Shown here: positions 27,604 to 44,200 of the stretch, one piece after another
Layout: each line of letters opens with the position of its first letter
How positions within the stretch are numbered: position 1 is the stretch's first letter
Source: Thermoplasmatota archaeon
Lineage (GTDB): Archaea > Thermoplasmatota > Thermoplasmata > UBA10834
Assembly: GCA_022848805.1 (NCBI GenBank)
Contig: JAJISI010000002.1
Coordinates: 1-51,533, forward strand
Length of the DNA stretch: 51,533 nucleotides
Reading direction: 5' to 3'
Position numbers and translations under genes: made by a program
The notes under the pieces: generated by a model
Seen by the model: only the letters and a program-made list of their open reading frames with translations
Databases searched by the model: none
Told to the model about the DNA's origin: nothing

Positions 27604-29118
27604 TCAGAAGTTTCTCACGGTCTTCAGCTTCGACCCGTCGGCGCGTCTCACGTTTATCTCAAGGGCCGGAGAGCCGTTCAGAGCGTGTGTTCCGCAGGAG
27701 TTGCATGGGTCATAGCATCGGAAAGCCATCTCGACCTTGTTCAGCAGTCCTTGGGAGACCTCGCCGTTCTGGATCAACGCCTTCGCCGCCTGCACGACAC
27801 TCGTGTTGATCGCAGCGTTGTTGTTCGTCGTCGCGACGATCATGTTGATCTTCGTGCATAGCCCGTCCTTGTCCGAGGCGTAGTGGTGTATCAGCGTACC
27901 TCTGGGAGCTTCGCATATGCCCACGCCTTCCGTCGGCTCCTTGAACTCGCCCCGTGTGTCATCGCTCGTGATGACGTCGTCAGTGGCCAGCTCGAGCATC
28001 CTCTCCGCAGCGTGCTGCAACTCGATCACCCTAGCCCAATGGAACGCGAGCGTGTGGTGGACGGGGCCTGTCACTCCCAGGTCCTTCACTGTCTTGGCCA
28101 GTACCTCGTACTCCGCCTGTGCGAGGGGAGTCGTGTAGCCCTCGCAGACGTTTATCCTGCCTAGGGGTCCGACCCTGTATATCCCGCTCGACGGGCCTGT
28201 GGTGAAGCCGTTCCAGCCAACGCTCTTCAGATATGGCATCTTCATGTATGACCACGGTTCGACGTGCTCGGCGATGATGTCGAGATACTCGCTCGGCTTG
28301 AACTTGACGACCTCCTTGCCAGCCTGGTCGACGACACGTACGTCCCCGTCGTAGAAGTTGCTCTTGTTGTCCTTGTCGACCATTCCCATGTAGTATGTCT
28401 CGAGGTAGTACGCGTCCTGGTTCAGTATGAGGCCGAGGTAGTCCTGGTTTGCCAGCACGACATCGTGGAACAGCTTGATCGTGAACTTGCCGAACTCGAT
28501 GCACGACCTTGCCATCTCCTCCATCTGAGCGCGCTCCTCCTCACTTATCTGCTTCGAGACGCCGCCTGGCAGGCCGAAGCACGGATGCGTGGCCCTCCCT
28601 CCGACGATCTCCTGCACCTTCTGACCGTACGAGCGGTGCTTGATGACCTCTCCGCCGATCTCGACGCCGACGGCATCCACCACTCCCAAGATATTCCTCT
28701 TGTTGGACGGCGCAGACGGTCCCAGCACGAAGTCGGGCGCTGCAAGCGCGTAGAAGTGTGCTATGTGGCTGTGGACGTACTGACCCATGTAGAATAAATC
28801 TCTCAGTTTTGTCGCCGTCTCTGTCGGGGTGGCGTCGAACACCGCGTCAAGCGTCTTCGTAGACGCTATGTGATGCGCGGCCGGGCAGACGCCACACAGC
28901 CTGTTGGTGATTATGGGCAGCTCCTGCACATGTCTGCCGATGCAGAACCTCTCGAAGCCTCTGAGCTCAGGGACCTGCCAGTAGGCATTGGCCACGTTCC
29001 CCTCGTCGTTCAGGAAGATCTCGATCTTGCCGTGTCCCTCGAGCCTTGTGATCGGGTCGATCGTGAGCTTCTTCTCGGTCGTCTTGGTCGTCGTATCGTT
29101 GATTATCGGTCCGGACAT
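27604..29118 (-). CDS. mvhA: [NiFe] hydrogenase large subunit, Mvh/group-3c-like
   Basis: RLEGHGKI, N-terminal RLCGVCPAAHH and C-terminal DPCNSCGTH Ni-Fe ligands, followed by a 26-residue cleavable extension (ALNGSP...TVRNF). Confidence 0.9.
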   Translation of the reverse strand: MSGPIINDTTTKTTEKKLTIDPITRLEGHGKIEIFLNDEGNVANAYWQVPELRGFERFCIGRHVQELPIITNRLCGVCPAAHHIASTKTLDAVFDATPTETATKLRDLFYMGQYVHSHIAHFYALAAPDFVLGPSAPSNKRNILGVVDAVGVEIGGEVIKHRSYGQKVQEIVGGRATHPCFGLPGGVSKQISEEERAQMEEMARSCIEFGKFTIKLFHDVVLANQDYLGLILNQDAYYLETYYMGMVDKDNKSNFYDGDVRVVDQAGKEVVKFKPSEYLDIIAEHVEPWSYMKMPYLKSVGWNGFTTGPSSGIYRVGPLGRINVCEGYTTPLAQAEYEVLAKTVKDLGVTGPVHHTLAFHWARVIELQHAAERMLELATDDVITSDDTRGEFKEPTEGVGICEAPRGTLIHHYASDKDGLCTKINMIVATTNNNAAINTSVVQAAKALIQNGEVSQGLLNKVEMAFRCYDPCNSCGTHALNGSPALEINVRRADGSKLKTVRNF

Positions 29119-29124
29119 CTTGAA

Positions 29125-30138
29125 TCACCCCTTCCTCTTGCGCTCCTTCACAGTCCTCTTGAGGAGGGACTTGGGGAGCGTGAAGGCGTAGAAAGTCCCG
29201 ATCGGGTCTTTCACCTGCATCATAAGTTCCATTATCTGCTCCTCACTTAACTTTGACTCCGAATCCGTGATGTTGAGGATCGAAGCTAGCGCGCTCAGCA
29301 TGCTACCTCCGTGGTCCATGACGGCCTTCGTCGGGCCCATGCAACCCCTACAGGGCATGTTGGCGACCGGGCACATCGCACCACAGCCCGCGCGCGTCGC
29401 GGGCCCTATGCATATTATGCCCTGGTCCAAGAGGCACTTCTTGGGATCCGCTTTGATCTCATACGCCTGATATATCCTGTCGATGGTTTTGCCCTTCTCG
29501 ACCCTCTCGCGGTCGCACTCGTCGCAGAGCGTCTTGTCAGATGCGATGACAGTGCCCTTCGGCGGCAGAGGCGCCCCCTCCTTCACGTGCTTCAAGAGAG
29601 CACCGACCGCCACCATGATGAGGTCGACCGTGGGCGGACAACCCGGCATGAAGTAATCGACATCCACGACCTCGTCCAGAGTCTTCACGGTGTCGTAGAA
29701 TTCCGGCAGGGTCAACTCTCCCTCCGGCACCATCACACTCGTCTGCGGCGTCACGAAATCGGGATTGTCGGTCGACTCGGTGTCCTTGTAGACTGTCTGG
29801 AAGACCTCCTCCTTGTTCGTCACGTTCGCGAGGCCGGGTGTTCCGCCGAAGCATGCGCACGATCCGAAGCTTATCATTATGACGGATTTCTCCCTCAGCA
29901 CCTTCGCGACGTGCTCGTTCTCGCTGTTCCTTATGGCGCCGTTGTAGAACGCTACCGTGATCGACTTGTCCGGCATCTGCTCCAATTCGTGTAGCTTGCC
30001 GTCGAAACCTATCGGCCAGAACACCACATCGGCTATGGCGTGCAAATCCAGTATCTTTGCGTCTATGTCCAGGAGCGCGACGTCGCATCCCCCGCAACCC
30101 GCGCCCCAGTACTGCGCGATCTTGATCTTATCTGCCAT
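29125..30138 (-). CDS. mvhG: [NiFe] hydrogenase small subunit, Mvh-like
   Basis: MADKIKIAQYWGAGCGGCDVALLDI..GSCACFGG..GCPP..CPVANMPCRGCMGP. The ATG at 30138 follows GGAGGTGA. The 132-codon upstream extension in the ORF track is Arg/Asp/Gly-rich and overlaps the better-supported ORF 30141-30524 in another frame. Confidence 0.88.
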   Translation of the reverse strand: MADKIKIAQYWGAGCGGCDVALLDIDAKILDLHAIADVVFWPIGFDGKLHELEQMPDKSITVAFYNGAIRNSENEHVAKVLREKSVIMISFGSCACFGGTPGLANVTNKEEVFQTVYKDTESTDNPDFVTPQTSVMVPEGELTLPEFYDTVKTLDEVVDVDYFMPGCPPTVDLIMVAVGALLKHVKEGAPLPPKGTVIASDKTLCDECDRERVEKGKTIDRIYQAYEIKADPKKCLLDQGIICIGPATRAGCGAMCPVANMPCRGCMGPTKAVMDHGGSMLSALASILNITDSESKLSEEQIMELMMQVKDPIGTFYAFTLPKSLLKRTVKERKRKG

Positions 30139-33900: not shown

Positions 33901-34026
33901 GCTCGGCTGCTTCTCGACCAGGTACACCTTGAATCCTGAGTCGGCCAGGTCCAGCGCCGACTGCAGGCCTGAGATGCCCCCTCCGACGACCATGACCGCT
34001 CCGGTCTTGTCACTAGCTGCCATCAC
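30985..34026 (-). CDS. Double-length HdrA-family flavoprotein (1013 aa; two thioredoxin-reductase-like FAD modules in tandem)
   Basis: Half A (res 1-~435): [20 protein letters not shown], inserted ferredoxin (CTGCGSCAQKCP, CIGCGICAEEC), [15 protein letters not shown]. Half B (res ~445-1013): [16 protein letters not shown] Cys domain, [24 protein letters not shown]-terminal 2x[4Fe-4S] (CDGCGLCVPTC, CKGCGACIGACP). Confidence 0.9.
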   Translation of the reverse strand: MMAASDKTGAVMVVGGGISGLQSALDLADSGFKVYLVEKQPSIGGAMAQLDKTFPTNDCAMCIMAPKLVATGRHHNIELITNADIVKVDGQEGNFTVTGKQRALRVDASKCTGCGSCAQKCPIETTDEYNENTKVRKAIFVKYPQAVPLVYSIDQDKCIGCGICAEECKADAVDYDQKEKDFEIKVGSIIVSPGFDEFDPRLKAEYGYGVYQNVVSSIELERILSATGPHFGTVLRPSDGDIPEKIAFIQCVGSRDEKVGNEYCSGVCCMYSIKEAIIAKEHGGNIKPKIFFMDMRTFGKEFEEYYNRAKDEYGIEFVRSRVASVFEDPETKNLIVSYVEKGEPKEEEFGLVVLAVGLRPPEDAEALSKVMNFSLNDDGFCETGAFTPVSTSRPGVFVSGAFSSPKDIPMTVAEASGAAAKAASEISSARNTLVTKKEYPAETDVSEQEPRIGVFVCHCGINIGGVVNVPSVAEYAKSLPNVVYTEENLYTCSQDTQEKIKQMVKEHNLNRVVVASCTPRTHEPLFQNTIKEAGLNPYLFEMANIRDQCSWIHMHEPTAATKKSKDLVRMAVAKSRLLESLENLTIDVNQQALVVGGGAVGMVTALELAKQGVKVHLVEKEKELGGNLLKLHYLQSGDDPMEYVQSLAKEVTSDPNITTYIGKTIKDIDGYVGNFKTTLESGEEIEHGTVTLAVGGQEYKPDGEYLYGKNPGVMTLLEFKAKLKRGEAKGDSYVFIQCVGSREDGHPNCSRVCCAGTMTAAIKIKEKDPDAKVFVLYRDIRTYGFREKYYKEAAEKGVTFIRFDDDAKPVVEDKGGKIEVRVTDEDTDKEVVLTPDNLVLATGTRPSDGSEELAPMLKVPIMKEGFFLEAHMKLRPVDFATEGVYVAGLAHGPKFLDECIGQGLATVSRAMTVLSKTTLEAEGIVASLDETFCDGCGLCVPTCEYKALEIVPNEKEEGKKLVDVNVGLCKGCGACIGACPSGALTQKGFSDEQIVAMIDAALEETADKQEVKQ
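32381..32504 (-). repeat. Near-identical nucleotide tract shared with 42590-42713 (paralogous double-HdrA genes)
   Basis: Hand alignment at a constant offset of 10209 nt gives 115 of 124 positions identical, including perfect runs of 29, 22 and 40 nt. Confidence 0.8.
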
Positions 34027-34850
34027 TGCTCACCCCCGATCTCGATGGTCTTGTAGAGCGGTGTGAACCCCTCCGGATGCTCCATCGCGATCATGCTGTT
34101 CTGTCTGAGTAGGACGATGTGCCTGAGGACCCTGTCCGTGGGCACCTCCATGACCATGCCCAGCTGTTTCACCGACATGGGTCTTATCCGTGCCAGCTCG
34201 AGTATAAGTGCCCTCTCGAACTCCTCCTCCGTGGCGACATCTATGATGCCGGTGAGTTTCTCAGGATCGACCGTGTCACCGTACGCATTCCCCTTGCTCA
34301 GGAGGTTGAACTCCTTCCCGACCAGGGCCTTCAGTCTGAATGTTTCGGAGGCGTCGTCAGCGGCTGCGACCTTCGCCTTCACCATATCATCCGTATGTAC
34401 CTTGCTCGGCCCCAGCTTCTGGATCTCTTCGGTGAATTCCGTCACGACCTTGGAGAACTTCTCTCCCTCGGACGCCGAGACCCATTCGAGCCTCAGCCGG
34501 CCCTCCTCGATCCCCGCTTCTCTGAGCAGCCTCTTCATCAGATTCACGCGCTTCTCCGTGTGGTAATTGCCCGTCATGTAGTGACAGTCGTTCAGGTGGC
34601 ATCCTCCAACGAGGATGCCGTCGGCACCGGCCTCGAGGACGTCGAGTACGATGTGCGGGCTCACCCTCGTGGAGCACATCACCCTGACGAGGCGGATGTT
34701 CGTCGGGTACTGGAACCTGCTGACGCCGCATAGATCGGCGCCTGCGTACGAGCACCAGTTGCACAGGAAGCCGACGATCTTCGGCTCCCATTCCTTGTCG
34801 GCCTCGGCCTCCTTCTTGCCGTGATGAGCGGTGTGATGCTTCTCCGTCAT
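34023..34850 (-). CDS. MvhD domain fused to the unassigned winged-helix-like domain
   Basis: N-terminal [61 protein letters not shown]. The C-terminal ~120 aa is homologous to ORF 30141-30524. The ATG at 34850 follows GGAGGAGGTG. The ORF-track start at 34889 would overlap the upstream gene. Confidence 0.85.
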   Translation of the reverse strand: MTEKHHTAHHGKKEAEADKEWEPKIVGFLCNWCSYAGADLCGVSRFQYPTNIRLVRVMCSTRVSPHIVLDVLEAGADGILVGGCHLNDCHYMTGNYHTEKRVNLMKRLLREAGIEEGRLRLEWVSASEGEKFSKVVTEFTEEIQKLGPSKVHTDDMVKAKVAAADDASETFRLKALVGKEFNLLSKGNAYGDTVDPEKLTGIIDVATEEEFERALILELARIRPMSVKQLGMVMEVPTDRVLRHIVLLRQNSMIAMEHPEGFTPLYKTIEIGGEQ

Positions 34851-34854
34851 GTCC

Positions 34855-36732
34855 TCACACCTCCTCCAAGGCCGCTTTGGCCTCCGCAAGCAGCTGCTGA
34901 TCCGTGTAGTGTGTCATGGTGATGGCATTCTCTGGGCAGGTGGCGCCGCAGCAACCACAGCCCTTGCACGCTGCGGCAATCACCTCGGTGACGCCCTCCT
35001 CGTTCTTCCTCAGGGCGCTGTACGGGCACGCTTCGACGCATGTCCCGCAGCCGCTGCATTTCGCCTCGTCGATTCTTGAAGTGAGCGCCTCGGCCTGGAC
35101 GAACCCGTTCGCAAGAGGTATCACTGCCCTCGAAGCAGCAGCAGCAGCTTGAGAGACGGCCTCCGTGATGTCGGCCGGTCCTCTGCAAGCCCCGCAGACG
35201 TACACTCCATCGGTCGCGAAGTCCACCGGTCTCAGTTTGACATGCGCCTCTTGGAAGAAGCCGTCTTGTCCGAGCGGGACCTTGAGCAGCTGCGATAGCG
35301 TGGCAGCGTCTGGCTGGGCCACGAGCGGAGTCGAGAGTATGACCAAGTCAACGGGCATCGTCCTCTCCATCTTCAGCGTCTCGTGGAAGTATCCGACTTC
35401 GAGCTTCCCGTCCTTGACGGATACCTTCGGAAGGTTGTCCGGCAGGTATCTGATGAACTTGACTCTCTTCTCCCTGGCTTTGTTGAACTCGAGCTCGTGT
35501 TCGACGCCGTACGCCATGACGTCCCTGTTGAACACCGTGACCTCGACACCACTGGACGGAGCAGCTGCCTCCTCACCGCCCTCATCCTCGTCACGCCGGC
35601 CTCTGCCCCGCCTTCTGCGCCTTCTTTCAGACCCCTCTTCCTCAGCCTTCTTCTCGGCGGTGGGTTCTTCCACGACCTCTCCCGTCTCTGCTGCCTTCTC
35701 CTCGGTCACGCCGAGCATGTTATCGCGGTTCTCGGCAATGTTCATCGCGCTCTTGATCGCGACGTTGCAGCAGATTCTGGAGCAGTACGAGACCGTCTGT
35801 CCTCTCGCACCAACGCACTGTATGAAAGCGACGCTTTTCAGCTTGGGCAGCTCCTTCTTGTTGCAGAGTTCCTCGAACTCTGTGGATGTTATGACGTTCG
35901 GGTGTTCCTTGTATCCGAACAGCCCCTCAGGTACCAGCGGCACCGCACCCGTGGCCACGATGATGGTGCCCACCTTGACTTCCTTCGCCTCAGCCCCATC
36001 CCCTCCTATGGAGACATCATAGTTGCCTATGAACCCCTCCACCGATGCGACGTGCGAGTTGAGGTGCTGGGTGATGTTCTTGTGTGCGTTCACCTTGTCG
36101 ATGAGAGGCTTGATCGTCTCGTTGGCGCTCTTGGTGGTCATCATGAGGCCGTGCAGGTTTTTCACGAACCCTCCGAGCTCCTGGTCCTTCTCGACGAGGT
36201 GCACCGGGAATTTCATGTTGGCGAGCGACAGCGCTGCCGTCATCCCGGACACGCCGCCTCCGACGACGAGCGCGGTGGGCGTGACATCGACCTTCGTCTC
36301 CTCCTGGGGTTCGAGGAACCGGGCTCTCGCAATACCCATCCTGACCAGGTCCTTCGCCTTCTGGGTCGCCTTCTCCTTCTCCTTCATGTGGACCCACGAG
36401 CAGTGCTCACGGATGTTGACAAAAGTGAACATGTACTTGTTCACGCCAGCAGCCTCGCATGTCCGCTGGAAGAGAGGTGCGTGTGTCCTGGGCGTGCAGC
36501 TCGACACGACGACTCTGTCGAGGTTGTGCTCCTTGATGCTGTCCTTGATGTTGTTGAGGCCGTCCTCGGCACATGTGTAGAGGTTGTCCGTCGCGTAGGC
36601 AACGTCCGGGAGGGTTGACGCATACTCGGTCACGGCCTTCACATCGACAAAGCCGCCTATGTTGGATCCACAGTGGCAGATGAATACTCCAATCCGTGGC
36701 TTCTCCTTCTCGGTGCTTGTGTTCTCGGGCAT
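34855..36732 (-). CDS. Short HdrA-family flavoprotein (half-B type: Cys domain + FAD module + C-terminal ferredoxin, no inserted ferredoxin) with a charged low-complexity insert
   Basis: PRIGVFICHCGSNIGG, VVGGGVSG, FIQCVGARG..CSRICC, CSGCGTCVEACP, CKGCGCCGATCP. It lacks DKTFPTxDC and the inserted CxxCxxCxxxC pair. The insert is EEKAAETGEVVEEPTAEKKAEEEGSERRRRRRGRGRRDEDEGGEE. Confidence 0.88.
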   Translation of the reverse strand: MPENTSTEKEKPRIGVFICHCGSNIGGFVDVKAVTEYASTLPDVAYATDNLYTCAEDGLNNIKDSIKEHNLDRVVVSSCTPRTHAPLFQRTCEAAGVNKYMFTFVNIREHCSWVHMKEKEKATQKAKDLVRMGIARARFLEPQEETKVDVTPTALVVGGGVSGMTAALSLANMKFPVHLVEKDQELGGFVKNLHGLMMTTKSANETIKPLIDKVNAHKNITQHLNSHVASVEGFIGNYDVSIGGDGAEAKEVKVGTIIVATGAVPLVPEGLFGYKEHPNVITSTEFEELCNKKELPKLKSVAFIQCVGARGQTVSYCSRICCNVAIKSAMNIAENRDNMLGVTEEKAAETGEVVEEPTAEKKAEEEGSERRRRRRGRGRRDEDEGGEEAAAPSSGVEVTVFNRDVMAYGVEHELEFNKAREKRVKFIRYLPDNLPKVSVKDGKLEVGYFHETLKMERTMPVDLVILSTPLVAQPDAATLSQLLKVPLGQDGFFQEAHVKLRPVDFATDGVYVCGACRGPADITEAVSQAAAAASRAVIPLANGFVQAEALTSRIDEAKCSGCGTCVEACPYSALRKNEEGVTEVIAAACKGCGCCGATCPENAITMTHYTDQQLLAEAKAALEEV

Positions 36733-36738: not shown

Positions 36739-39444
36739 TCACTCCCCTCCTGAATTGGCGAGGATCTCCGCTGCCTTGGCAGCCGCGCTCGATCCCTGGG
36801 CAACGGATTCCGGGATGTCGGCCGGTCCTGCGCAATATCCCGCGAGGTAGATTCCGGGCAGGCCACTCTTGCCGAAGCCCAGGATGCTATCGGGAGACTC
36901 GAAGAAGCCGAATTCCGTGAGCTTCAGCCCGAGCTTCTTCGCCAGTTCGACAGTGTCCTCCCTGGGGACGAGCGTCGTCGCGAGCACGACCGCGTCGAAC
37001 TCCTCTGATTGCTGCTTCCCCCCCACGTCGAAGACGACCACTGGATTGTTGGTCTCCGCGTTCTCCTGTACGGTTGCATCCGAGTTGATGTAGCTGACTC
37101 CGTAATCGCTCTTAGCCCTTTCAACGTACTCGTTGAACCCTTTCGCGCAGGCCCTCATGTCCTTGTAGAATATCGTGGAGTTGATGTCTTCGTAGTGTTC
37201 CCTGGCGAGCATAGCCTCTTTCGTGGCATGCATGCAGCACACTGAACAGCAATAGGGATGTCCCACCTGCGGGTTTCTCGATCCGACGCACTGGATGAAC
37301 GCCAGTTTCTTCGGATGCTCCCCATCGGATCGCCTCACGATGTGTCCTCCAGTGGGTCCTGAGGCGTTGATCATACGTTCATATTCCATCGCCGTGTAGA
37401 CGTTTGGGTACTTCTTGTAGCCGTACTCTGAGGCAGATGTCGGGTCCCACATATCGAAGCCAGTGGCGACTATGACCGCCGCCGGATTCAGCGTTACGAC
37501 CTGATCCTTCATGTTGTAGTCGATGGCGTCGGGGCCGCACGCAGTGGCGCACGCCTCGCACTGGGAGCACGGTCCGCAGTTCACGCATCGAGCCGCCTCC
37601 TTGAGCGCCTCCTCCTTGGTGAACACCTTCTCGACCTCCTCGAAAGAGGTCTTGCGCTTATCATCCGGAATGTGTTGCCTGAGGACACGCTCGCTCTTCG
37701 AGATATCTCCATCCATTCTCGCCTTGATGTCTTCGAGCGTGATCACATGCTCATTCTTCTCCTCTGGTTCCGGCTCGATGCTCTCACCGTTCAACGACTT
37801 CTCGATGTATCGAGCGGCTTTATTGCCCGCCGCGAACGCCTCGACAGCCGACGCGGGTCCTGAAACGGCATCTCCGCCTGCGAAGACGCCTGGGATGTTG
37901 GTGCTTAGGTTGCCGGGGTTGACCTCCAGGGTCTTCCACTTCGTGACCGCAAGGTCCTTCGAGCCAAGAGCGTCCAGGTCCGGCGCCTGGCTCACTGCTG
38001 GGATGACCGTGTCGACTTCGACGGTGAATTCCGACCCATCGACAGGCACTGGACGCGGACGGCCTGACTGGTCCGGCTCGCCGAGTTTCATCCTTATGCA
38101 CTCGATGGCCGTAATCTTGCCGTCCTTGCCCTGGATCTTGACCGGTGATGCCAAGAACTCGAACTTGACTCCTTCCTCTTCCGCTCCTTTGATCTCAGCT
38201 GCGATCGCGGGCATCTCGTCCTTCGTCCGGCGGTATATCACAGTCACATCGGAGCCCATGCGCAAGGCCGTTCTCGCGGCGTCCATCGCGGCGTTTCCCC
38301 CGCCTATGACTGCCACCTTCTTGCCGATCTTGACCGTCTCCTTGTCTGCGACCCTGTGAAGGAAGTCCACGCCATGGACAACCCCTTCCAGGTCCTCGCC
38401 CGGGACGCCCAGCTTGAGGCTCTTATGAGCCCCTATGGCCAGGAAGACGGCATCGTACTCTTTCTTCAGGTCCTCGAGCGCCAGATCCTTGCCGACGGTC
38501 TTGCCGTACTCGATCTCGATCCCGTGTGCCAACAGATGGTCCACCTCGGCGGTCAGCACATCCTTGGGAAGACGGTAGTCGGGGATGCCCCACCAGAGCA
38601 TCCCGCCGGGTTTCGATGTGGCCTCGAACATCTTAACCTTGAATCCTTTGAGCGCCAGACGGTAGGCTGCTGCCAGGCCGGCCGGGCCAGCTCCCACAAC
38701 CGCAACCTTCTCCTTCCGCTCCTCCTCGATTGGGGTCGGCACGTCCTCGCCCTGCTCGCGGACGTAGTCCCCGACGAAAGCCTTCAATCCCGCGATGGCT
38801 ACCGGTTCGTCGACGTCCGTTCTGTTGCAGCCCTCCTCGCAGGGGTGGTGGCATATGCGTCCACACACGGAGGGGAGCGGGATGGTCCTTCGTATCAGGT
38901 CCACCGCTTCCTTGAACTTCTCGGCTCGTATGAGTGCGACGTATCCCTGCGCGCTCAGGCCAGCCGGGCATTTGTCGGAACACGGCGCCACTCCTGCCCT
39001 GTCGATCGTTGCAGCTCTTGGCACTGATTGAAGGAACGGCACGTAGATCGCCGGCCTCTCCCTCATGCCCATATCGAATTCGTTCGGAAGGCTTACCGGG
39101 CACACCTTGAAACAGTCGCCACAGCCATTGCACTTCTCCTCGTCGACGAACCTGGCCTTCTTGAGCACATCAACCTTGAAATCACCGGCTTTCCCAGAGA
39201 TGTCCTTCACCTCTGAGTATGTCATCACATTGATACTGGGATGCGCGTAGCAGTCGGCCATCTTCGGCGCCAGGATGCAGATCGAGCAATCGTTCGTCGG
39301 GAAAGTCTTGTCCAACTGTGCCATTCTTCCGCCTATGCTGGGCAGTTTCTCGACAAGATCGACCTCGATCCCCCTCTCGGCTAGGTCCAAAGCAGCCTGT
39401 ATTCCGGCAATTCCGCCTCCGATTACCATTACGGATTTCGTCAA
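36739..39444 (-). CDS. HdrA-family flavoprotein (half-A type) with a nested GltD/NfnB-like NAD(P)H:FAD oxidoreductase module
   Basis: TTG start after GGGGGT. HdrA parts: [32 protein letters not shown] ... [15 protein letters not shown] ... GIYLAGYCAGPADIP. Inserted part (res ~150-620): CPAGLSAQGYVALIRAEKFKEAV..PSVCGRICHHPCEEGC, VAVVGAGPAGLAAA, VAVIGGGNAAMDAA, GVFAGGDA. Confidence 0.88.
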   Translation of the reverse strand: MTKSVMVIGGGIAGIQAALDLAERGIEVDLVEKLPSIGGRMAQLDKTFPTNDCSICILAPKMADCYAHPSINVMTYSEVKDISGKAGDFKVDVLKKARFVDEEKCNGCGDCFKVCPVSLPNEFDMGMRERPAIYVPFLQSVPRAATIDRAGVAPCSDKCPAGLSAQGYVALIRAEKFKEAVDLIRRTIPLPSVCGRICHHPCEEGCNRTDVDEPVAIAGLKAFVGDYVREQGEDVPTPIEEERKEKVAVVGAGPAGLAAAYRLALKGFKVKMFEATSKPGGMLWWGIPDYRLPKDVLTAEVDHLLAHGIEIEYGKTVGKDLALEDLKKEYDAVFLAIGAHKSLKLGVPGEDLEGVVHGVDFLHRVADKETVKIGKKVAVIGGGNAAMDAARTALRMGSDVTVIYRRTKDEMPAIAAEIKGAEEEGVKFEFLASPVKIQGKDGKITAIECIRMKLGEPDQSGRPRPVPVDGSEFTVEVDTVIPAVSQAPDLDALGSKDLAVTKWKTLEVNPGNLSTNIPGVFAGGDAVSGPASAVEAFAAGNKAARYIEKSLNGESIEPEPEEKNEHVITLEDIKARMDGDISKSERVLRQHIPDDKRKTSFEEVEKVFTKEEALKEAARCVNCGPCSQCEACATACGPDAIDYNMKDQVVTLNPAAVIVATGFDMWDPTSASEYGYKKYPNVYTAMEYERMINASGPTGGHIVRRSDGEHPKKLAFIQCVGSRNPQVGHPYCCSVCCMHATKEAMLAREHYEDINSTIFYKDMRACAKGFNEYVERAKSDYGVSYINSDATVQENAETNNPVVVFDVGGKQQSEEFDAVVLATTLVPREDTVELAKKLGLKLTEFGFFESPDSILGFGKSGLPGIYLAGYCAGPADIPESVAQGSSAAAKAAEILANSGGE

Positions 39445-39484: not shown

Positions 39485-39508
39485 CATTGTATGTACTACA
39501 GTACAATG
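39485..39508. promoter_or_regulatory. Near-perfect palindrome in the only sizeable gap inside the hdr block (candidate internal promoter/operator)
   Basis: CATTGTATGTA-C-TACA(G)TACAATG lies 41-64 nt upstream of the TTG start at 39444. That is where a TATA/BRE would be expected for a short SD-containing leader. Confidence 0.35.
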
Positions 39509-39604: not shown

Positions 39605-41206
39605 TCATTCCAACGCCTCCGCAATCGCAACACTCAGGTCCTTGATCTTAATGTCCACCTGCTCCTTCGGGACTCCCTCGAGTTTGTTGTCTCGTGTGCA
39701 AGCCAGATGGATCAGGCATTTGTAGCAGCCCGTGACCAAACAATCCGCCCCCGTCTTCTTCGCTTCCTTCAGCCTCTCCACCTGTATCTTTCTCGCGGTC
39801 TCGTCGCAGGTCGTCCACGCGCTCACGCCGCAGCAGAGCGCCTTGTCCCTGGTGTTCTCCATCTCGATTATCTCCGTACCCTCTGAGGCTTCGAGTGCGG
39901 CCCTCGGCGGGTCGTATATGTCGAGGTGCCGGCCAAGCCTGCATGAGTCCTGGAAGGTCAGCTTCCTGGCGCTTGGCTTGAGCTTCAACTTCCCCTCCTT
40001 CACCAGGTCGTCCACGAGCTCTGAGACATGCGTCAGCTCGAACTCGAAATCTCCCATGAAGTCCTGGTAGTCCATGTCGAAGGTCCTCATGCACTCGGGG
40101 CACGAGAACACAACCTTCTTCGCGCCAGAGGCCTTGATCAGGTCGACATTCTTCTTCATCAGCTTCTGGAGGCCCGCCTCGTCCCCCGTCCAGTTGAGGT
40201 CGTGCCCGCAGCAGACCTCGTCGTTGCTCACCACCGGGACAATTCCTGCCTTGTTCATTATCTTCACGACCGCCTGGGGTATACCTGACAGGTTGAGTTC
40301 CCTGTCGTTGAACAGCGCGTCGAAGTATGAGACGCAGCCCGTGAAGTAGAACACCTCGCCCTTCTCTGCGACCTTCAGCTCCTGTGTCAGCCACCCGAGC
40401 CTGTCCTGTTTGAAGTCGCCGTATGCTTGGACCCGCATGAGCCCCTGTATGATCCCACCCTGACTGCACGTCGGTGTGCTGTCCATCTTGACGGCCTCGG
40501 CCCGAAGACCCCTGATGAACCCAGAGTAGTCGACCTCGTACGGACACATGGAGTTGCACTGCTCGCATGTGATGCAGGTCCATATGTCCCCGCCCGTCGT
40601 GATCGCCTCCGTCTGCCCCTCCGTCGCCTTGAGGACTATCGTTCTCGGAGCGAAGTCCGGGTCATGCTTCGCGACAGGACACACGGTCGTGCACTTGCCG
40701 CATTCGACGCAGTCGAAGGCGCCGGTGTCCTCGATGAGTTGATCGACCTTCCGTTTCAAGCTGGCCGGATCGATGCTACCAGCTTTGGGCTGCTTCGGGA
40801 TGGGGTTGGGTCCGAGCTTCCTTATCTGCTCGGTAAACTCCTTCATCGTTGCGGCGAACTTCTGGCCTTCGGACGCGGATATCCACTCGAGGCGCATCCT
40901 GTCCCTGCCTATTCCGACGATGTCGAGCAGCTCCTGGGTCGTCTTCATCCGCTTCTCCGCTTCGACGTTGCCCGATATGTAGTGGCAGTCACCGATATGG
41001 CAGCCTGCGACCAGGACGCCGTCGGCTCCCAGCTCGAGCGCTTTGAGTATGAAGTACGGTTCCACCCGGCCGGAGCACATGACGCGTATGATGCGCGCGT
41101 TGGGCGGGTACTGCATCCTGCTGACGCCCGCGAGGTCAGCACCTGCGTACGAGCACCAGTTGCAGCAGAAGGCGACGATGTTCGGCTCGAACTCGTCCCC
41201 GCTCAT
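39605..41206 (-). CDS. MvhD-HdrC-HdrB triple-domain fusion (soluble HdrD-like CCG reductase with N-terminal MvhD)
   Basis: Res 1-~135 MvhD ([48 protein letters not shown]). Then 2x[4Fe-4S] ([24 protein letters not shown]). Then two CCG domains ([17 protein letters not shown] and [17 protein letters not shown]). Confidence 0.88.
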
Positions 41207-44200
41207 GCCTTCGCCTCCCGTTCCTCGTCGTCATCTGCAAGCGCCGCCTCTATCATCGTGATTATCTGGTCGCTCCTGAAATGCTTGGACCGGATGGCCC
41301 TGGAACAACACTCGACCACACACGAACCGCAGCCTTTGCACAGCGCCTCGTTCACCTTCGACTTGAACACTCCGGGGGAGACCTCCTCGAGCCTCGGGGC
41401 GCCGTATTCGCAGAGGTCCACGCATCTCCCACAGCCGATGCATTTTTCCTCGTCGACCACGCTGACGACGCCCTCGCCCTCTATGAACGGCTTGGAGAGG
41501 ACCGTGTTGACCCTCGCGGCCGCGGCCAGCGCCTGCGAGATGCTCTCGTCGATCAGCCGCGGTGAGTGGGCTAGGCCGCAGAGGAATATGCCATCGGTCG
41601 CGAAGTCGACCGGCCTGAGCTTCATGTGCGCCTCGAGGAAGAACCCCTCCTCGTTCTGCGGTACCTTCAATTTCTGGGCTATGTCCTTGTTGTCGGGGTT
41701 AGGATGGACTGCGGCGTTCAGCACGACATAGTCCGGCCTGATCGTGATGGTCTCCTCTATGAACTTCTCGTCGATCTCGACGATTATGCCATCGCCGTCC
41801 GCTCTCACCTTGGGGGGCGATTCAGGGTCGTACCTTAGGAATCTCACCCCCTGACGGGCGGCCTCGTTGTAGTTCTCTTCTGCGAAGCCGAACGTGCGTA
41901 TGTCCCTGAACAGGATGTACACGCTCGTCTCGGGGTGCTCCTCTCGTATCTTGAGCGCGTTGGCCATCGCCGTGGAGCAGCATATCCTCGAGCAGTTCGG
42001 GTGCTCTTCGTTCCTCGAACCGACGCATTGAATTATTGCGACGGCCTTCGCGTCAAGCTCGCCCTTCGCCAGCATATCTCCCAGGTCGGTCTGTTTGATG
42101 ACCTTCGGGTGCTGGCCGCAGAGGTATTCCGTCGGTTCGTACTCCACCGCACCGGAGGCGACGACCACCGCTCCGTGTTTGATCTCTTCGCCGCCTTTCA
42201 GGGTGGTCTCGAAGTTGCCTATGTACCCTTTGACCTCCTCGACGGTCTCTCCGAGGTGTATCGTGACGTTCGTGTTGTCCTGCAAGTCCTTCTTGAGGTT
42301 TGCAAGGGTTTCCTGAGGGTTCACGCCTGCGAGCGTGTGGTGGATCCTCCTCATGTGCCCTCCCAACTCCTTCTCCTTTTCGACTATGTGTACCTCGTAT
42401 CCCGCCTTGGCTATCTCCAGCGCCGCGGTCATACCGCTCAACCCTCCGCCTATCACCAGTGCGGCCGGGGTGACCGGTATCTTCGGCTGAGGGAGCGGTT
42501 CGAGCATGGATGCCTTCGCGACTGCCATGCGCACGAGGTCCTTCGACTTCTCGGTGGCGGCCTCCGGTTCCAACCTGTGGACCCACGAGCATTGGTCCCG
42601 TATGTTCGCCATCTCGAAGAGATACTTGTTGAGCCCCGCCTCTCTGACGGTGTTCTGGAACAGCGGTTCGTGTGTCCTGGGCGTGCAGCTCGCGACGACC
42701 ACCCTGTTCAGGTCGTGCTCGTCGATCATCTCCTTGATCTTCTTCTGCGTGTCCTGAGAACAAGTGTACAGGTTTTCCTCCGCGTATACGACACCAGGGA
42801 GCTTGGAGGCGTACTCCATCACCCCAGGCACGTCTACGACGGATCCTATGTTGATCCCGCAATGGCAGACGAACACCCCTATCCTGGGTTCCTTGTCCGT
42901 CACGTCCTTCTCCTCGGGATACTCCTTCTTCGTGACCAGCTTGCCCCTCTCGTCTGAGAGCAAGGCGGCCGCCTTCCCTGCAGCTCCGCTTGCCTGAGCG
43001 ACAGAATCGGGTATGTCCTTCGGGCCGGAGAACGCCCCGCAGACGTAGATTCCTGGCACCGAAGTATCGACAGGCGCGAGCTCGTCGGTTTCGCAGAAGC
43101 CGAACTTGTTCATATTCATGCCAAGCGATTTCGCGAGCGCTTTCGAGGATTCCGGTGGCGTCGCCCCGGATGCCAGTACGACCATATCGAAAGTCTCATC
43201 TTCGATGTCAGCGCCATCTATGAAGCCGAGTACGAGGTCGCTCGTCCCGGGGTTCTCCTGGACCTTCGCGATCCTGTTGTTCCTGAACATCCTGACGCCG
43301 TACTCATCCTCCGCCCGGTGCAGATACTCCTCGAACTCCTTCCCGAAAGCTCTGGTATCCATGAAGAATATGGTCGTCTTGAGCCCCGGAACATGCTCCT
43401 GGGCGATGACCGCTTGCTTCAAGGCTGCCATACAGCAGTACGAGGAGCAGTAGGTGTTCGGCGTCTGTGCGTCCCTGGAGCCGACGCATTGTATGAACGC
43501 GATATTTTTCGGCACGTCCCCGTCCGAAGGCCTGATCACATGCCCCTCTGTAGGGCCTGACGCGCTCAACATCCTCTCGAACTCGATGTTGCTGAGCACG
43601 TTGGGGAACGTGCCATGACCGTACATCACCTTCTTTGAAGAGTTGTATACGTCGTAGCCTGGCGCGAGGATTATGGCGCCGACGTCTATGGTCTCTTCGA
43701 TATCTGGGTCCATGTCGTATTTGATGGCCTCAGCCTCGCAGAACTTCTCGCAGATGCCGCATCCGATGCACAGCCCTCTGTCGATGGTGTATATCAACGG
43801 GACTGCCTGCGGGAACGGTACATATATCGCCTTCGCGGGCGCCAGCTCCCTGTCGAATGCGCTGGACCACTCAATGGGACAGTGCTCCGCACACACGCCG
43901 CAGCCGGTGCACTTCTCCTCGACGATGTACCGTGAGTACTTGGCGAGTGTTACCTTGAAGTTCCCGGCCTGCCCCTCGACCTTCTTGAGAACGGAATAGG
44001 TGAGCATTGTGACATTCTCATGCCTGCCGGTCGCGACGAGCTTCGGGGACAGTATGCACATCGAGCAGTCGTTCGTCGGGAATGTCTTATCGAGCTGCGA
44101 CATAGTCCCTCCGATGCTCGGCGTCGTCTCCAGAAGATACACCTTGAACCCTGAATCCGCGAGATCCAGTGCGGCCTGCATCCCCGCCGGTCCGCCGCCG

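What the first reader, a model, noticed from the sequence alone, without database searches (positions are those of the whole stretch)
36739..39444. HdrA with a GltD/NfnB-like NAD(P)H oxidoreductase nested inside its inserted ferredoxin domain, with an apparently permuted junction
The HdrA frame runs [43 protein letters not shown]. At about residue 150 it is interrupted by ~470 residues with GltD-type signatures. These are CPAG..GYVALIRAEKFKEAV..LPSVCGRICHHPCEEGC (res ~155-206), FAD fold VAVVGAGPAGLAAA (247-260), NAD(P)H fold VAVIGGGNAAMDAA (377-390) and GVFAGGDA. The HdrA frame then resumes at CVNCGPCSQCEACATACGPDAIDY, followed by [15 protein letters not shown].

In stand-alone GltD/NfnB/SudA-type proteins, as I recall them, the segment F.EV....EEA..EA.RC..C precedes the CP...CGRVC...CE..C block. 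Here its look-alike SFEEVEKVFTKEEALKEAARCVNC (res ~600-623) comes after the Rossmann folds and merges with the second ferredoxin cluster motif.

This would hard-wire a pyridine-nucleotide site onto a bifurcating flavoprotein core. Large HdrA-GltD fusions (called HdrL in some sulfate reducers) exist. Whether this nested or permuted topology is the same cannot be judged without alignment.
Basis: partly seen in the sequence, partly recalled or inferred. Interest (0 to 1): 0.72.

Follow-up and report, generated by a model that had tools for sequence, protein, structure and literature searches.

The report
NADPH module nested inside HdrA

Summary
The ORF at 36739-39444 (- strand, 901 aa) is an HdrA thioredoxin-reductase-like core. 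Its inserted ferredoxin domain is interrupted at residues 151-625 by a GltD/NfnB-like module.

The permuted junction is real:
- The post-Rossmann segment 600-625 is the homologue of the N-terminus of stand-alone NfnB.
- Moving it in front of the core restores a full Pfam Fer4_20 match (98 bits, against 67-69 bits with shuffled or reversed tails).

Neither feature is unique to this gene:
- The nested architecture was published as HdrL (2009), HdrA9-11 (2022) and "type III HdrA" (2025).
- More than 100 protein clusters across archaea and bacteria share it.
- The window carries a split form. The 625-aa gene that follows equals the C-terminal half of the ~1480-aa fused proteins.
- The same permuted module occurs in the solved StnC and Bfu-type NfnA structures and in many other host proteins.

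All predicted cluster ligands are invariant, including a StnC-type Lys in place of the NfnB Glu. The nucleotide fold carries the NADPH signature (GxGxxA plus Arg-Arg).

The module is most likely a non-bifurcating NADP(H) port, wired through the ferredoxin-domain clusters to HdrA's flavin.

Verdict: new member of a known kind, modest interest.

The parts
36739..39444 (-). Whole ORF, 901 aa (TTG start, TGA stop). Split-form HdrL / type III HdrA, first polypeptide.
   Evidence: Homologues of 97% identity and the same length occur in Thermoplasmata MAGs.
38995..39444 (-). HdrA part 1 (res 1-150). Contains the FAD-binding start of the thioredoxin-reductase-like domain (GGGIAG), DKTFPTNDC53SIC56 (C56 = M. 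wolfeii Cys197) and the first half of the inserted ferredoxin domain.
   Evidence: Aligns to 5odc_A residues 143-290. C53 and C56 are invariant in 121 sequences.
39097..39132 (-). Ferredoxin motif 1, C105-x2-C108-x2-C111-x3-C115-P.
   Evidence: Pfam Fer4 hits at 100-118. All four Cys are invariant.
37570..38994 (-). Inserted, circularly permuted GltD/NfnB-like module (res 151-625).
   Evidence: NCBIfam NF009410 scores 554 bits, above its 516-bit cutoff, over residues 151-645.
38827..38982 (-). Fe-S 'head' of the module. C155-x3-C159-P, then C198, C202 and C206 (plus the non-canonical C194). These are ligands of the distal and proximal [4Fe-4S] clusters.
   Evidence: Fer4_20 profile positions 30-112. 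C155, C159, C198, C202 and C206 are invariant.
38782..38784 (-). K221, equivalent to StnC K170 (fourth ligand of the flavin-proximal cluster). Canonical NfnB has Glu here.
   Evidence: Alignments. Invariant in 121/121 sequences. The role of K170 is described in PMC10482914.
38569..38709 (-). FAD Rossmann fold of the module (GAGPAG ... GGM ... YR291L).
   Evidence: R291 = StnC R239.
38209..38319 (-). NAD(P)H Rossmann fold: G381-G-G383-N-A-A386 (GxGxxA) and Y404-R405-R406.
   Evidence: G381, G383 and A386 are invariant; YRR is present in 115/121 sequences. The same residues occur in 148-149 of 150 representatives.
37648..37779 (-). Return linker (res 556-599) that carries the chain from the end of the Rossmann part back to the Fe-S domain. 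It is the element that makes the permutation possible.
   Evidence: Poorly conserved. Lower pLDDT, about 75-77, at 561-580. Aligned with StnC residues ~505-536.
37570..37647 (-). Permuted 'tail' (res 600-625), SFEEVEKVFTKEEALKEAARC620VNC623GP. It is the homologue of the N-terminal helix plus the first two cluster cysteines of stand-alone NfnB/GltD.
   Evidence: C620 and C623 are present in 120/121 sequences. pLDDT 91-96.
37516..37569 (-). Ferredoxin motif 2 of HdrA, C626-x2-C629-x2-C632-x3-C636-GPDAIDY. It starts two residues after C623 and forms a composite six-Cys motif with the tail.
   Evidence: Aligns to 5odc_A from residue 293. All four Cys are present in 120/121 sequences.
36742..37515 (-). 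HdrA part 2 (res 644-901). The rest of the thioredoxin-reductase-like domain, with the [4Fe-4S] motif C719..C732..C736-C737.
   Evidence: Aligns to 5odc_A up to residue 567. The motif Cys are conserved.
34855..36732 (-). Partner gene (625 aa), 6 nt downstream. HdrA N-terminal cluster domain, then a second thioredoxin-reductase-like domain without the inserted ferredoxin domain or Cys197, then a C-terminal ferredoxin domain. It equals the C-terminal half of fused HdrL.
   Evidence: Colinear with residues 913-1469 of the 1471-aa P0028. Gene spacing.
34023..34889 (-). MvhD-like [2Fe-2S] subunit with a C-terminal extension of about 125 aa.
   Evidence: Pfam FlpD at residues 38-160. An MvhD gene lies next to 66 of 80 bacterial HdrL loci.
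39605..41206 (-). Upstream MvhD-HdrC-HdrB fusion (533 aa). Candidate disulfide-reducing partner, separated from the target by 160 nt.
   Evidence: Pfam FlpD plus Fer4_8 plus 2 x CCG. NCBIfam hits.
27604..30138 (-). Mvh/Vhu-type [NiFe]-hydrogenase small (29125-30138) and large (27604-29118) subunits, in the same gene string.
   Evidence: NCBIfam VhuG and VhuA hits. The same gene order occurs in L001.

Best explanation
The gene encodes the first polypeptide of a split HdrL-type ("type III") HdrA.

Shown from sequence, alignments and the structural model:
- An HdrA thioredoxin-reductase-like flavoprotein core carries a 475-residue GltD-like module. The module is spliced into the loop immediately before the second Cys motif of HdrA's inserted 2x[4Fe-4S] ferredoxin domain.
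- The module is a circular permutant of stand-alone NfnB/GltD. Its chain starts at the third cluster cysteine (C155) and ends with the helix and first two cysteines (C620, C623) that open the canonical protein.
- C155, C620 and C623 correspond to ligands of the same distal cluster in canonical NfnB/GltD.

Inferred:
- The two ends of the insert therefore meet.
- The last module ligand, C623, lies two residues from the first ligand, C626, of the HdrA ferredoxin cluster.
- This gives a continuous chain: NADP(H), module FAD, proximal [4Fe-4S] (3 Cys + Lys221), distal [4Fe-4S], the two ferredoxin-domain clusters, and HdrA's bifurcating FAD.
- The module thus occupies the position where canonical Hdr complexes dock ferredoxin or polyferredoxin.
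- By homology with StnC and Bfu-type NfnA, the module is a simple, non-bifurcating NADPH port rather than a second bifurcation site.
- The enzyme works with the 625-aa partner, MvhD, an HdrBC-like unit and, in this operon, an Mvh-type hydrogenase.

My preferred reading, at about 45%, is that NADPH is the mid-potential partner. It would be oxidised to reduce a disulfide (high-potential arm), with low-potential electrons leaving through the N-terminal cluster, the C-terminal ferredoxin domain and MvhD to the hydrogenase or ferredoxin. The reverse, confurcating, direction is equally possible.
For: - Insert boundaries and identity of both parts.
- Permutation.
- Ligands. C105/108/111/115, C155/159/198/202/206 and K221 are invariant in 121/121 sequences. 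C620/623, C626/629/632/636 and the HdrA cluster motif C719/732/736/737 are present in 120/121.
- NADPH signature. GxGxxA is invariant and YRR is present in 115/121. The same residues occur in NADPH-binding StnC and NfnA (PMC10482914).
- Lys versus Glu. NfnB and Xfn have Glu where the target, StnC and both NfnA proteins have Lys. StnC K170 ligates the proximal cluster, and the StnC FAD is reported as non-bifurcating. In NfnABC the bifurcation site is the FMN flavobicluster, not the NfnB-like domain.
- Model. AF2 gives pLDDT 89.5 and pTM 0.86, with a confident tail. The best structural matches are 9bov_A (rmsd 1.9 A over 481 columns) and 8oh5_C (rmsd 2.2 A over 482 columns).
- The partner gene is colinear with the C-terminal half of fused HdrL.
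- MvhD is adjacent in 66 of 80 HdrL loci.
- The inserted ferredoxin domain is the low-potential outlet in solved Hdr complexes (PMC13518236; PMC9012536).
- Published AF models of type III HdrA place the GltD domain over the ferredoxin site (PMC12054007).
Against: - No biochemical data exist for any HdrL or type III HdrA.
- In canonical Hdr the inserted ferredoxin domain is the low-potential outlet. An NADPH donor entering there requires the arms to have swapped roles or been re-tuned.
- The module is 42-45% identical to bifurcating NfnB and keeps the Arg (R291) that contacts flavin N5 in NfnB. A bifurcating module flavin is therefore not excluded.
- Some permuted modules in other hosts carry Glu at the Lys position (10 of 150). 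Lys is not tied to the permutation itself.
- PMC12054007 argues for NADH.
- The 160-nt gap between the HdrCB-like gene and the target leaves the identity of the disulfide-reducing partner open.
Confidence: 0.6

Rival explanations
1. Same wiring, opposite logic. The HdrA core keeps its canonical polarity. [quoted passage not shown] NADP+ replaces ferredoxin as the acceptor of that arm, giving H2-dependent NADP+ reduction driven by disulfide reduction. This would be useful at low H2 pressure.
For: - In all solved Hdr complexes the inserted ferredoxin domain is the low-potential outlet, and no change of the core is needed.
- The target heads a gene string that ends with an Mvh-type hydrogenase.
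- The module blocks the ferredoxin site in published models.
Against: - At standard potentials H2 (-414 mV) reduces NADP+ (-320 mV) without coupling.
- None of 80 bacterial HdrL loci has a hydrogenase within 3 kb.
- In StnABC and NfnABC the homologous module handles the mid-potential partner, NADPH.
Confidence: 0.25
2. The inserted module is a true NfnB-like second bifurcation site, so the protein holds two bifurcating flavins. This idea was raised by Chadwick et al. 2022.
For: - 42-45% identity to bifurcating NfnB/NfnL (PMC9012536).
- The Arg that contacts flavin N5 in NfnB is conserved as R291 in 121/121 sequences.
Against: - The proximal-cluster ligand is Lys, as in StnC, not the Glu of NfnB.
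- The closest sequence and structure relatives are StnC and Bfu-type NfnA, whose module flavin is not the bifurcation site.
- No NfnA-like [2Fe-2S]/FAD partner was detected among the neighbouring genes profiled. The flavin would therefore have only one Fe-S exit.
Confidence: 0.1
3. The nucleotide is NADH, not NADPH, as proposed for type III HdrA from a GXGXXG motif and assumed for HdrL.
For: - PMC12054007 and PMC2702500 both write NADH.
- One GXGXXG motif is present in the module, GAGPAG at 251-256.
Against: - GAGPAG lies in the first Rossmann fold, which aligns with the FAD fold of NfnB and StnC.
- The second fold is GGGNAA (GxGxxA). It is followed by Tyr-Arg-Arg after strand 2, with no acidic residue. 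This is the pattern of NADPH-binding GltD, NfnB, StnC and NfnA.
Confidence: 0.2
4. There is no permutation. Residues 600-625 are merely an N-terminal extension of the second ferredoxin motif, and the module simply lacks its first cluster motif. A weaker version holds that the whole nested ORF is an assembly or gene-calling chimera.
For: The tail is short, and its stand-alone E-values are modest (6e-4 against PDB; 25.0 bits against a 25.8-bit Pfam cutoff).
Against: - The best PDB hit of the tail is exactly the N-terminus of NfnB.
- The native tail adds about 29 bits and completes Fer4_20, while shuffled or reversed tails do not.
- The tail is aligned and solved in StnC and NfnA.
- C620 and C623 are present in 120/121 sequences, as needed to complete the distal cluster.
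- The architecture recurs in more than 100 clusters from many phyla and assemblies.
Confidence: 0.02

Closest known systems
Type III HdrA / HdrA9-11 of ANME-1 and Bathyarchaeota (Chadwick et al. 2022, PMC9012536; Microbiol Spectr 2025, PMC12054007)
   Same: [quoted passage not shown] It is found in clusters with several HdrA paralogues, MvhD and sometimes mvhADG. Published models show the module covering the ferredoxin site.
   Different: - Described there from 9 sequences of methane-metabolising archaea and called rare and recent. Here the closest relatives are Thermoplasmata MAGs, and the family spans many bacterial and archaeal phyla.
- In the passages I retrieved, neither paper mentions the permutation or the Lys ligand. 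A library-wide term search for 'permutation' with GltD, NfnB or StnC also found nothing relevant.
- One paper proposes two bifurcation sites. The other proposes NADH.
HdrL of sulfate reducers (Desulfobacterium autotrophicum HRM2, Syntrophobacter fumaroxidans Sfum_0824; PMC2702500, PMC5947623)
   Same: A large HdrA/glutamate-synthase fusion with an NAD(P)H site, followed by MvhD. Proteins of about 1480 aa from Desulfobacteraceae, Syntrophobacteraceae and Thermodesulfobacteriota align over the full length of target plus partner, with the same junction motifs.
   Different: - The window's version is split into 901-aa and 625-aa genes with a 6-nt gap. About a quarter of the top 120 clusters are split in the same way.
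- It has no selenocysteine.
- It sits in an operon with an Mvh-type hydrogenase, which none of 80 bacterial loci has within 3 kb.
- The named HdrL proteins themselves were not retrieved, only relatives at family level.
GltD-like domain of StnC (8oh5) and of Bfu-type NfnA (9bov, 9n5u)
   Same: - Closest sequence and fold relatives of the insert (E = 1e-121 to 1e-132; rmsd 1.9-2.2 A over about 481 columns).
- The same permuted order: head C-x3-CP, then the Rossmann folds, then a tail F.EV..EA.RC..CG.
- The same Lys at the proximal cluster and the same NADPH-fold residues.
   Different: - The host protein is NuoG/FdhF-like, with the module inserted after an N-terminal [2Fe-2S] domain at about residue 102.
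- The partners are HydBC-like, with an FMN bifurcation site.
- Here the host is HdrA and the bifurcating cofactor is HdrA's FAD.
Stand-alone NfnB/NfnL (4ylf_B, 5jca_L), GltD (2vdc_G, 6s6s_G) and the DPD N-terminal domains
   Same: Two [4Fe-4S] clusters, an FAD fold and an NADPH fold. Identity is 40-42% for NfnB/NfnL/Xfn and 34% for GltD. Rmsd is about 2.1-2.6 A over 420-433 columns for NfnB/NfnL and GltD. DPD matched by sequence only (E = 2e-38) and gave poor whole-chain superpositions.
   Different: - The F.EV...RC..C segment is N-terminal there and C-terminal here, so the module is circularly permuted.
- NfnB and Xfn carry Glu at the proximal-cluster position, Lys here. From my own recollection of the DPD structure, DPD carries Gln there.
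- NfnB pairs with NfnA. No NfnA-like partner was detected among the neighbours profiled here.
HdrA of MvhADG-HdrABC (5odc; also 8rvu, 7bkb)
   Same: Thioredoxin-reductase-like FAD domain, the CxGSR..C..CC cluster motif, both ferredoxin motifs of the inserted domain and the Cys197 equivalent (C56).
   Different: [quoted passage not shown] Both are supplied by the 625-aa partner.
- The inserted ferredoxin domain is interrupted by the NADPH module.
- It scores far below the NCBIfam HdrA/HdrA2 cutoffs (526 bits against 1100).

Membership tests
HdrA (heterodisulfide reductase subunit A) | Thioredoxin-reductase-like FAD domain homologous to solved HdrA | tested here: met
   5odc_A aligns to residues 2-149 and 626-897, E = 9e-135. 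Foldseek TM-score normalised to the target is 0.62 for 5odh_A.
HdrA (heterodisulfide reductase subunit A) | [4Fe-4S] motif CxGSR-x(n)-C-x3-CC in the flavin domain | tested here: met
   C719, C732, C736 and C737 are present in 120/121 homologues.
HdrA (heterodisulfide reductase subunit A) | Inserted ferredoxin domain with two CxxCxxCxxxC motifs | tested here: met
   Motifs at 105-115 and 626-636, all Cys conserved, but separated by the 475-aa insert.
HdrA (heterodisulfide reductase subunit A) | N-terminal cluster domain and C-terminal ferredoxin domain in the same polypeptide, and a score above the NCBIfam HdrA/HdrA2 cutoff | tested here: not met
   The protein starts directly at the flavin domain and ends after it. 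NF040770 scores 526 bits against a cutoff of 1100. Both domains are in the next gene.
HdrL / type III HdrA | GltD/NfnB-like NAD(P)H module inserted within HdrA's inserted ferredoxin domain | tested here: met
   Insert at 151-625, between 'TIDR' and the second ferredoxin motif. Matches the published description.
HdrL / type III HdrA | Full-length colinearity with fused HdrL-type proteins of sulfate reducers | tested here: met
   - The target covers 95-100% of its length against fused proteins of 1420-1565 aa.
- The partner aligns to residues 913-1469 of P0028.
- 80 Desulfobacterales, Syntrophobacterales and other loci match P0113 end to end.
HdrL / type III HdrA | Adjacent MvhD gene | tested here: met
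   MvhD at 34023-34889, two genes downstream. Present in 66 of 80 HdrL loci.
HdrL / type III HdrA | NAD(P)H-dependent disulfide (or other) reductase activity | not testable with these tools
   I found no enzymology reported for any member. This requires purified protein.
GltD / NfnB (NfnL) family, stand-alone type | FAD and NADPH Rossmann folds with conserved glycine motifs | tested here: met
   Pyr_redox_2 at 246-540, E = 3e-49. GAGPAG and GGGNAA + YRR are conserved.
GltD / NfnB (NfnL) family, stand-alone type | Complete N-terminal Fer4_20 domain in canonical order (F.EV..EA.RCxxC first) | tested here: not met
   Fer4_20 matches only from profile position 30. The missing part lies at residues 600-625, after the Rossmann folds. 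TIGR01316 scores 413 bits, below its 471.75 cutoff.
GltD / NfnB (NfnL) family, stand-alone type | Glu ligand at the flavin-proximal cluster, and an NfnA partner (bifurcating Nfn) | tested here: not met
   Lys221 replaces the Glu of 4ylf_B and 5vj7_A. No NfnA-like protein was detected among the neighbouring genes profiled.
Permuted, insertable GltD-like module (StnC / Bfu-type NfnA / NCBIfam NF009410 PRK12771.1) | Order is head C-x3-CP, then Rossmann folds, then linker, then tail EA.RC..CG, in one colinear alignment | tested here: met
   - Alignments to 8oh5_C, 9bov_A and 9n5u_A run from residue 152/153 through 627-632.
- NF009410 scores 554 bits, above its 516 cutoff.
- 139 of 150 closest 50%-identity representatives show all four head and tail Cys colinearly.
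Permuted, insertable GltD-like module (StnC / Bfu-type NfnA / NCBIfam NF009410 PRK12771.1) | Lys at the StnC K170 position | tested here: met
   K221 in 121/121 HdrA-nested homologues and in 134/150 representatives.
Permuted, insertable GltD-like module (StnC / Bfu-type NfnA / NCBIfam NF009410 PRK12771.1) | NuoG-like host and HydBC-like partners (Stn/Bfu complexes proper) | tested here: not met
   The flanks are HdrA, not NuoG-like. None of the neighbouring genes profiled matched HydB/C-like families. The protein works like the StnC module but is not a member of Stn/Bfu complexes.

The most novel reading that the evidence does not exclude
The insert belongs to a single, apparently undescribed class of circularly permuted GltD modules. 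Its chain ends meet at one [4Fe-4S] cluster, and it has been used repeatedly as a plug-in NADPH port spliced into Fe-S proteins: the HdrA ferredoxin domain, NuoG-like StnC/NfnA, small ferredoxin-like proteins and about 900-aa Firmicutes proteins. In HdrL it converts the ferredoxin outlet of the Hdr bifurcating core into an NADP(H) site. This would create a ferredoxin-independent enzyme coupling NADPH, a disulfide and H2 (or another MvhD-delivered partner) in many uncultured anaerobes, with NADPH rather than the NADH assumed in the literature.
Probability: 0.35. Interest if true: 0.5.

Novelty: new member of a known kind. Interest (0 to 1): 0.3.

Why it matters
HdrA-type flavin-based electron bifurcation is central to energy conservation in methanogens, methanotrophic archaea, sulfate reducers and syntrophs. 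HdrL / type III HdrA proteins are common in genomes and abundant in at least one proteome (S. fumaroxidans, PMC5947623), yet I found no enzymology for any of them.

Three points from this analysis sharpen what to test:
- The inserted module is of the StnC/NfnA type, permuted and Lys-ligated, and therefore probably non-bifurcating.
- It carries an NADPH signature, not an NADH one.
- It sits exactly on the arm that normally reduces ferredoxin.

The analysis also corrects two published suggestions (a second bifurcation site, and NADH specificity) and shows the family is far broader than "some ANME-1". For this particular window, however, the gene is an ordinary member of that family.

Tried and rejected
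- Regex classification of head and tail motifs in the 150 representatives was too strict (48 of 150). I replaced it with a profile-anchored alignment (139 of 150).
- I wanted cluster-to-flavin and tail-to-head distances from the AF2 model. Only confidence and secondary structure are exposed, and no coordinates appear in /data. Distances remain inferred.
I used Pfam scoring with shuffled controls instead.
- I tried to recover the named HdrL proteins of D. autotrophicum and S. fumaroxidans among GTDB representatives.
- A literature search for 'permutation' with GltD, NfnB or StnC found nothing relevant in the held library. A bioRxiv HdrA evolution paper does not mention the insertion.
- Considered and rejected: an assembly or gene-calling chimera (the architecture recurs in more than 100 independent clusters), and the tail as an unrelated ferredoxin extension.
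- Lys221 as a marker of the permutation itself is rejected. Ten permuted representatives carry Glu and four carry His.
- The sigma-70 promoter scan of the 160-nt upstream gap found nothing and does not apply to archaea. The operon structure is therefore unresolved.
- The rest of the window (CDC48, 2-oxoacid:ferredoxin oxidoreductase, AspRS, histidine biosynthesis, TPR proteins) gave no clue to the physiological disulfide.

Full report
**1. What is in the sequence**

The ORF at 36739-39444 on the minus strand translates without interruption to 901 aa from a TTG start.

Solved HdrA from the Mvh-Hdr complex (5odc_A) aligns in two blocks, with an overall E-value of 9e-135:
- residues 2-149 to chain positions 143-290
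- residues 626-897 to chain positions 293-567

The two blocks are adjacent in HdrA. Residues about 151-625 are therefore an insertion, placed between the strand ending 'TID(K/R)' and the first cysteine of the second CxxCxxCxxxC motif of HdrA's inserted ferredoxin domain.

The insertion matches:
- Pfam Pyr_redox_2 at 246-540 (E = 3e-49) and Fer4_20 at 153-232
- NCBIfam NF009410, 'NAD(P)-binding protein, PRK12771.1', at 554 bits, above its 516-bit cutoff
- in the PDB, most strongly the GltD-like domains of C. saccharolyticus NfnA (9bov_A, E = 3e-132), T. sibiricus NfnA (9n5u_A) and S. ovata StnC (8oh5_C)
- ahead of stand-alone NfnB (4ylf_B, E = 5e-100), NfnI-L, GltD and DPD

**2. The permuted junction is real**

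Fer4_20 aligns to the start of the insert only from profile position 30 of 113. The insert begins at the third cysteine of the canonical C-x2-C-x4-C-x3-CP motif.

Three tests show where the missing part went:
- Residues 580-625, searched alone against all PDB sequences, hit best the N-terminus (residues 8-43) of T. maritima NfnB (E = 6e-4). The next hits are the post-Rossmann segments of StnC (537-566) and the two NfnA proteins.
- Against Pfam, a slightly longer segment (580-642) hits Fer4_20 positions 1-38 (E = 1.7e-5).
- An artificial construct with residues 585-626 placed before the core gives Fer4_20 positions 2-112 at 95.5-98.3 bits. Three shuffled tails and one reversed tail give 66.8-69.2 bits, starting at position 24-30.

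Canonical PfNfnI-B uses its first two cysteines (Cys42 and Cys45) as [4Fe-4S] ligands (PMC12221290). C620 and C623 of the target correspond to these.

**3. The permutation is not special to this protein**

The alignments to StnC and both NfnA structures run colinearly from residue 152/153 through 627-632. These solved proteins have the same head, Rossmann, linker, tail order. In them the module is inserted after an N-terminal [2Fe-2S] domain (StnC residues 102-565, PMC10482914).

I searched residues 150-645 against 1.84 billion 50%-identity representatives:
- 5270 hits had E <= 1e-30.
- Of the best 150, 139 carry all four head and tail cysteines in one colinear alignment.
- The module starts anywhere from before residue 50 to after residue 600, in proteins of 490-1500 aa.

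A rough sorting of those 150 by host:

| Host context | Count |
|---|---|
| StnC/NfnA-like | 41 |
| HdrA flanks | 21 |
| Ferredoxin motifs on both sides, no HdrA | 21 |
| Ferredoxin motif after the tail only | 35 |
| Other | 32 |

Two Firmicutes loci (L025, L036) show proteins of about 900 aa. They have an unrelated N-terminal domain, a ferredoxin motif, the permuted module and a second ferredoxin motif.

The held literature contains no paper combining 'permutation' with GltD, NfnB or StnC. This point seems unremarked, although it is implicit in the deposited structures.

**4. The nested architecture is published and widespread**

- Chadwick et al. [quoted passage not shown]
- A 2025 survey names it type III HdrA (9 sequences, ANME-1 and Bathyarchaeota). 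It shows models in which the GltD domain covers the ferredoxin site (PMC12054007).

My searches show the family is much broader:
- The best 120 protein clusters cover 95-100% of the query, apart from one truncated 531-aa fragment (59%). Their lengths are about 900 aa or 1420-1565 aa.
- Named sources include Thermoplasmata (97% identity), Methanomassiliicoccales, Aerophobetes, BRC1, Dehalococcoidia and Thermodesulfobacteriota.
- In species-representative genomes, full-length matches occur in Dehalococcoidales, Syntrophobacteraceae, Desulfococcus, Thermotogae, Actinomycetes, Bacteroidales and others.
Most come from Desulfobacteraceae, Desulfobacterales, Syntrophobacteraceae, Syntrophales, Planctomycetes and Spirochaetes, plus a Methanoregula MAG and cultured Desulfatitalea alkaliphila.
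- The sequences I read show the same junction: '...ID(K)RG..PC...CP...' and '...EA.RC..CG.CS.C..C...C...AI.H/YD'.

**5. The window carries the split form**

The next gene (34855-36732, 625 aa) starts 6 nt after the target's stop codon, with a GGAGGGG just upstream. [quoted passage not shown]

It aligns colinearly, at 47-50% identity, with residues 913-1469 of the fused 1471-aa P0028. The target keeps the equivalent of M. wolfeii Cys197 (C56) but has no N-terminal domain. This matches the complementary pattern Chadwick et al. describe for heterodimer-like HdrA pairs.

A contig from GCA_041548485.1 encodes a 97%-identical protein in the same gene order:
- HdrA, HdrC, HdrB, MvhD, tandem HdrA (1011 aa), MvhD-HdrCB
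- then the target, its partner, MvhD, tandem HdrA (1012 aa), MvhD, a 127-aa ORF, the hydrogenase small and large subunits, and HycI

**6. Cofactor sites**

In an alignment of the target with 120 homologues:
- Invariant in 121/121: C105/108/111/115, C155/159, C198/202/206 and K221.
- Present in 120/121: C620/623, C626/629/632/636 and C719/732/736/737.

By correspondence with DPD, GltD and NfnB, the predicted ligation is as follows. This is established family knowledge combined with the alignments.
- Distal cluster: C620, C623, C155 and C206.
- Flavin-proximal cluster: C159, C198, C202 and K221.

K221 aligns with StnC K170, which ligates the proximal cluster in the cryo-EM structure. NfnB and Xfn have Glu there.

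The first Rossmann fold (GAGPAG, GGM, YR291L) is the FAD fold. The second is G381-G-G383-N-A-A386 followed by Y404-R405-R406. GxGxxA is invariant and YRR is present in 115/121. The same residues occur in 148-149 of the 150 representatives.

This is the pattern of the NADPH-binding relatives. The GXGXXG motif that PMC12054007 uses to argue for NADH corresponds here to the FAD fold.

**7. Structure**

AlphaFold2 with a 50-sequence alignment gives mean pLDDT 89.5 and pTM 0.86. The tail (590-630) scores 91-96 and the return linker (561-580) about 75.

Foldseek against the PDB:

| Target | rmsd (A) | Columns | Note |
|---|---|---|---|
| 9bov_A | 1.9 | 481 | 46% identity |
| 8oh5_C | 2.2 | 482 | |
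| 9n5u_A | 5.0 | 526 | |
| 5jca_L (canonical) | 2.1 | 433 | |
| 4ylf_B (canonical) | 2.6 | 423 | |
| HdrA chains | | | TM-score normalised to target 0.62-0.95 |

The roughly 50 extra aligned columns in the permuted relatives fit the shared linker and tail.

**8. How it most likely works**

Shown: a complete NADPH/FAD/2x[4Fe-4S] module is spliced into an otherwise intact 2x[4Fe-4S] ferredoxin domain of an intact HdrA flavin domain. The last module ligand (C623) is two residues from the first ferredoxin-motif ligand (C626).

Inferred: the distal module cluster and the adjacent ferredoxin cluster are within electron-transfer distance. NADP(H) is then wired through four clusters to HdrA's FAD. In solved Hdr complexes the inserted ferredoxin domain is the low-potential outlet to ferredoxin or polyferredoxin (PMC13518236). 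The module takes that place.

In the two solved systems with this permuted module, its flavin is a plain NADPH entry point and bifurcation happens elsewhere. With the StnC-type Lys and no NfnA-like partner detected among the neighbours profiled, I consider the module non-bifurcating, at about 65%.

The conserved companion of HdrL is MvhD (66 of 80 loci). Hydrogenase is not (0 of 80). In this window an Mvh/Vhu-type hydrogenase closes the gene string.

The physiological reaction cannot be decided from sequence:
- About 45%: NADPH is the mid-potential partner. This fits standard potentials, the role of the module in Stn/Nfn, and the proposals of PMC12054007 and PMC2702500.
- About 25%: NADP+ is the acceptor on the unchanged low-potential arm, with H2 as donor.
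- The remainder covers other partners or directions.

**9. Comparison and verdict**

The protein is a member of the HdrL / type III HdrA family. It works like an HdrA core with a StnC-type NADPH port. It is not a stand-alone GltD/NfnB, because the canonical order and the Glu ligand are not met. It is not part of a Stn/Bfu complex, because the host and partners differ.

New relative to what I could find in the literature:
- recognition of the circular permutation and of the composite six-Cys junction
- the StnC-type Lys
- the NADPH rather than NADH signature
- the breadth of the family, and the split form in a Thermoplasmata-like lineage

These are refinements of a known kind, not a new kind. 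Interest is modest for this window. The family as a whole remains a good target for biochemistry.

Noticed in passing
window 35551-35730 (-), residues ~335-394 of the 625-aa partner gene 34855-36732: A ~60-residue, highly charged, low-complexity insertion (…EEKAAETGEVVEEPTAEKKAEEEGSERRRRRRGRGRRDEDEGGEE…). It sits inside the second thioredoxin-reductase-like domain and is absent from the fused homologue P0028.
   Followed up: no
window 34023-34889 (-): This MvhD copy carries a C-terminal extension of about 125 aa with no Pfam match at E <= 1. The ORF as listed overlaps the partner gene by 35 nt. The relative in L001 is called as 275 aa, so the true start may be later.
   Followed up: partly
window 30141-30524 (-): A 127-aa ORF lies between an MvhD gene and the hydrogenase small subunit and is conserved in L001. 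It has only weak helix-turn-helix hits (IclR/ArsR type, E = 3e-4 to 5e-3), so it may be a small regulator inside the operon.
   Followed up: partly
window 39485-39508, in the 160-nt gap upstream of the target: A nested palindrome, CATTGTACTGTAGTACATACAATG, about 40 nt upstream of the TTG start. It is a possible operator or RNA hairpin. The sigma-70/terminator scan found nothing there and does not cover archaeal promoters.
   Followed up: no
window 30985-34026, 41203-44238, 46179-48353, 39605-41206 (all -): Within 21 kb there are four HdrA-type units (one canonical of 724 aa, two tandem fusions of about 1010 aa, and the split NADPH-type pair). There are also four MvhD domains, one HdrB/HdrC pair and an MvhD-HdrC-HdrB triple fusion. 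This is an unusually dense Hdr paralogue cluster, resembling those described for ANME-1 but in a Thermoplasmata-like genome.
   Followed up: partly
L025 5131-7821 (+) and L036 5302-8010 (+): Firmicutes proteins of about 900 aa (Oscillospiraceae and Ruminococcaceae MAGs). The same permuted GltD module sits between two ferredoxin motifs, behind an unrelated N-terminal domain of about 290 aa. This is another host context for the cassette.
   Followed up: partly
window 38209-38319 (-), residues 376-412: The published inference that type III HdrA prefers NADH because of a GXGXXG motif (PMC12054007) conflicts with this protein and its homologues. In them GXGXXG is the FAD fold, and the nucleotide fold is GxGxxA plus Tyr-Arg-Arg.
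   Followed up: yes
window 38863-38865 (C194) and 38098-38100 (C449) (-): Two further conserved cysteines with no assigned role. C194 is present in 97/121 sequences and gives SVC-GRI-C. C449 is present in 115/121 and is also a Cys in StnC and Csac NfnA in the alignments.
   Followed up: no
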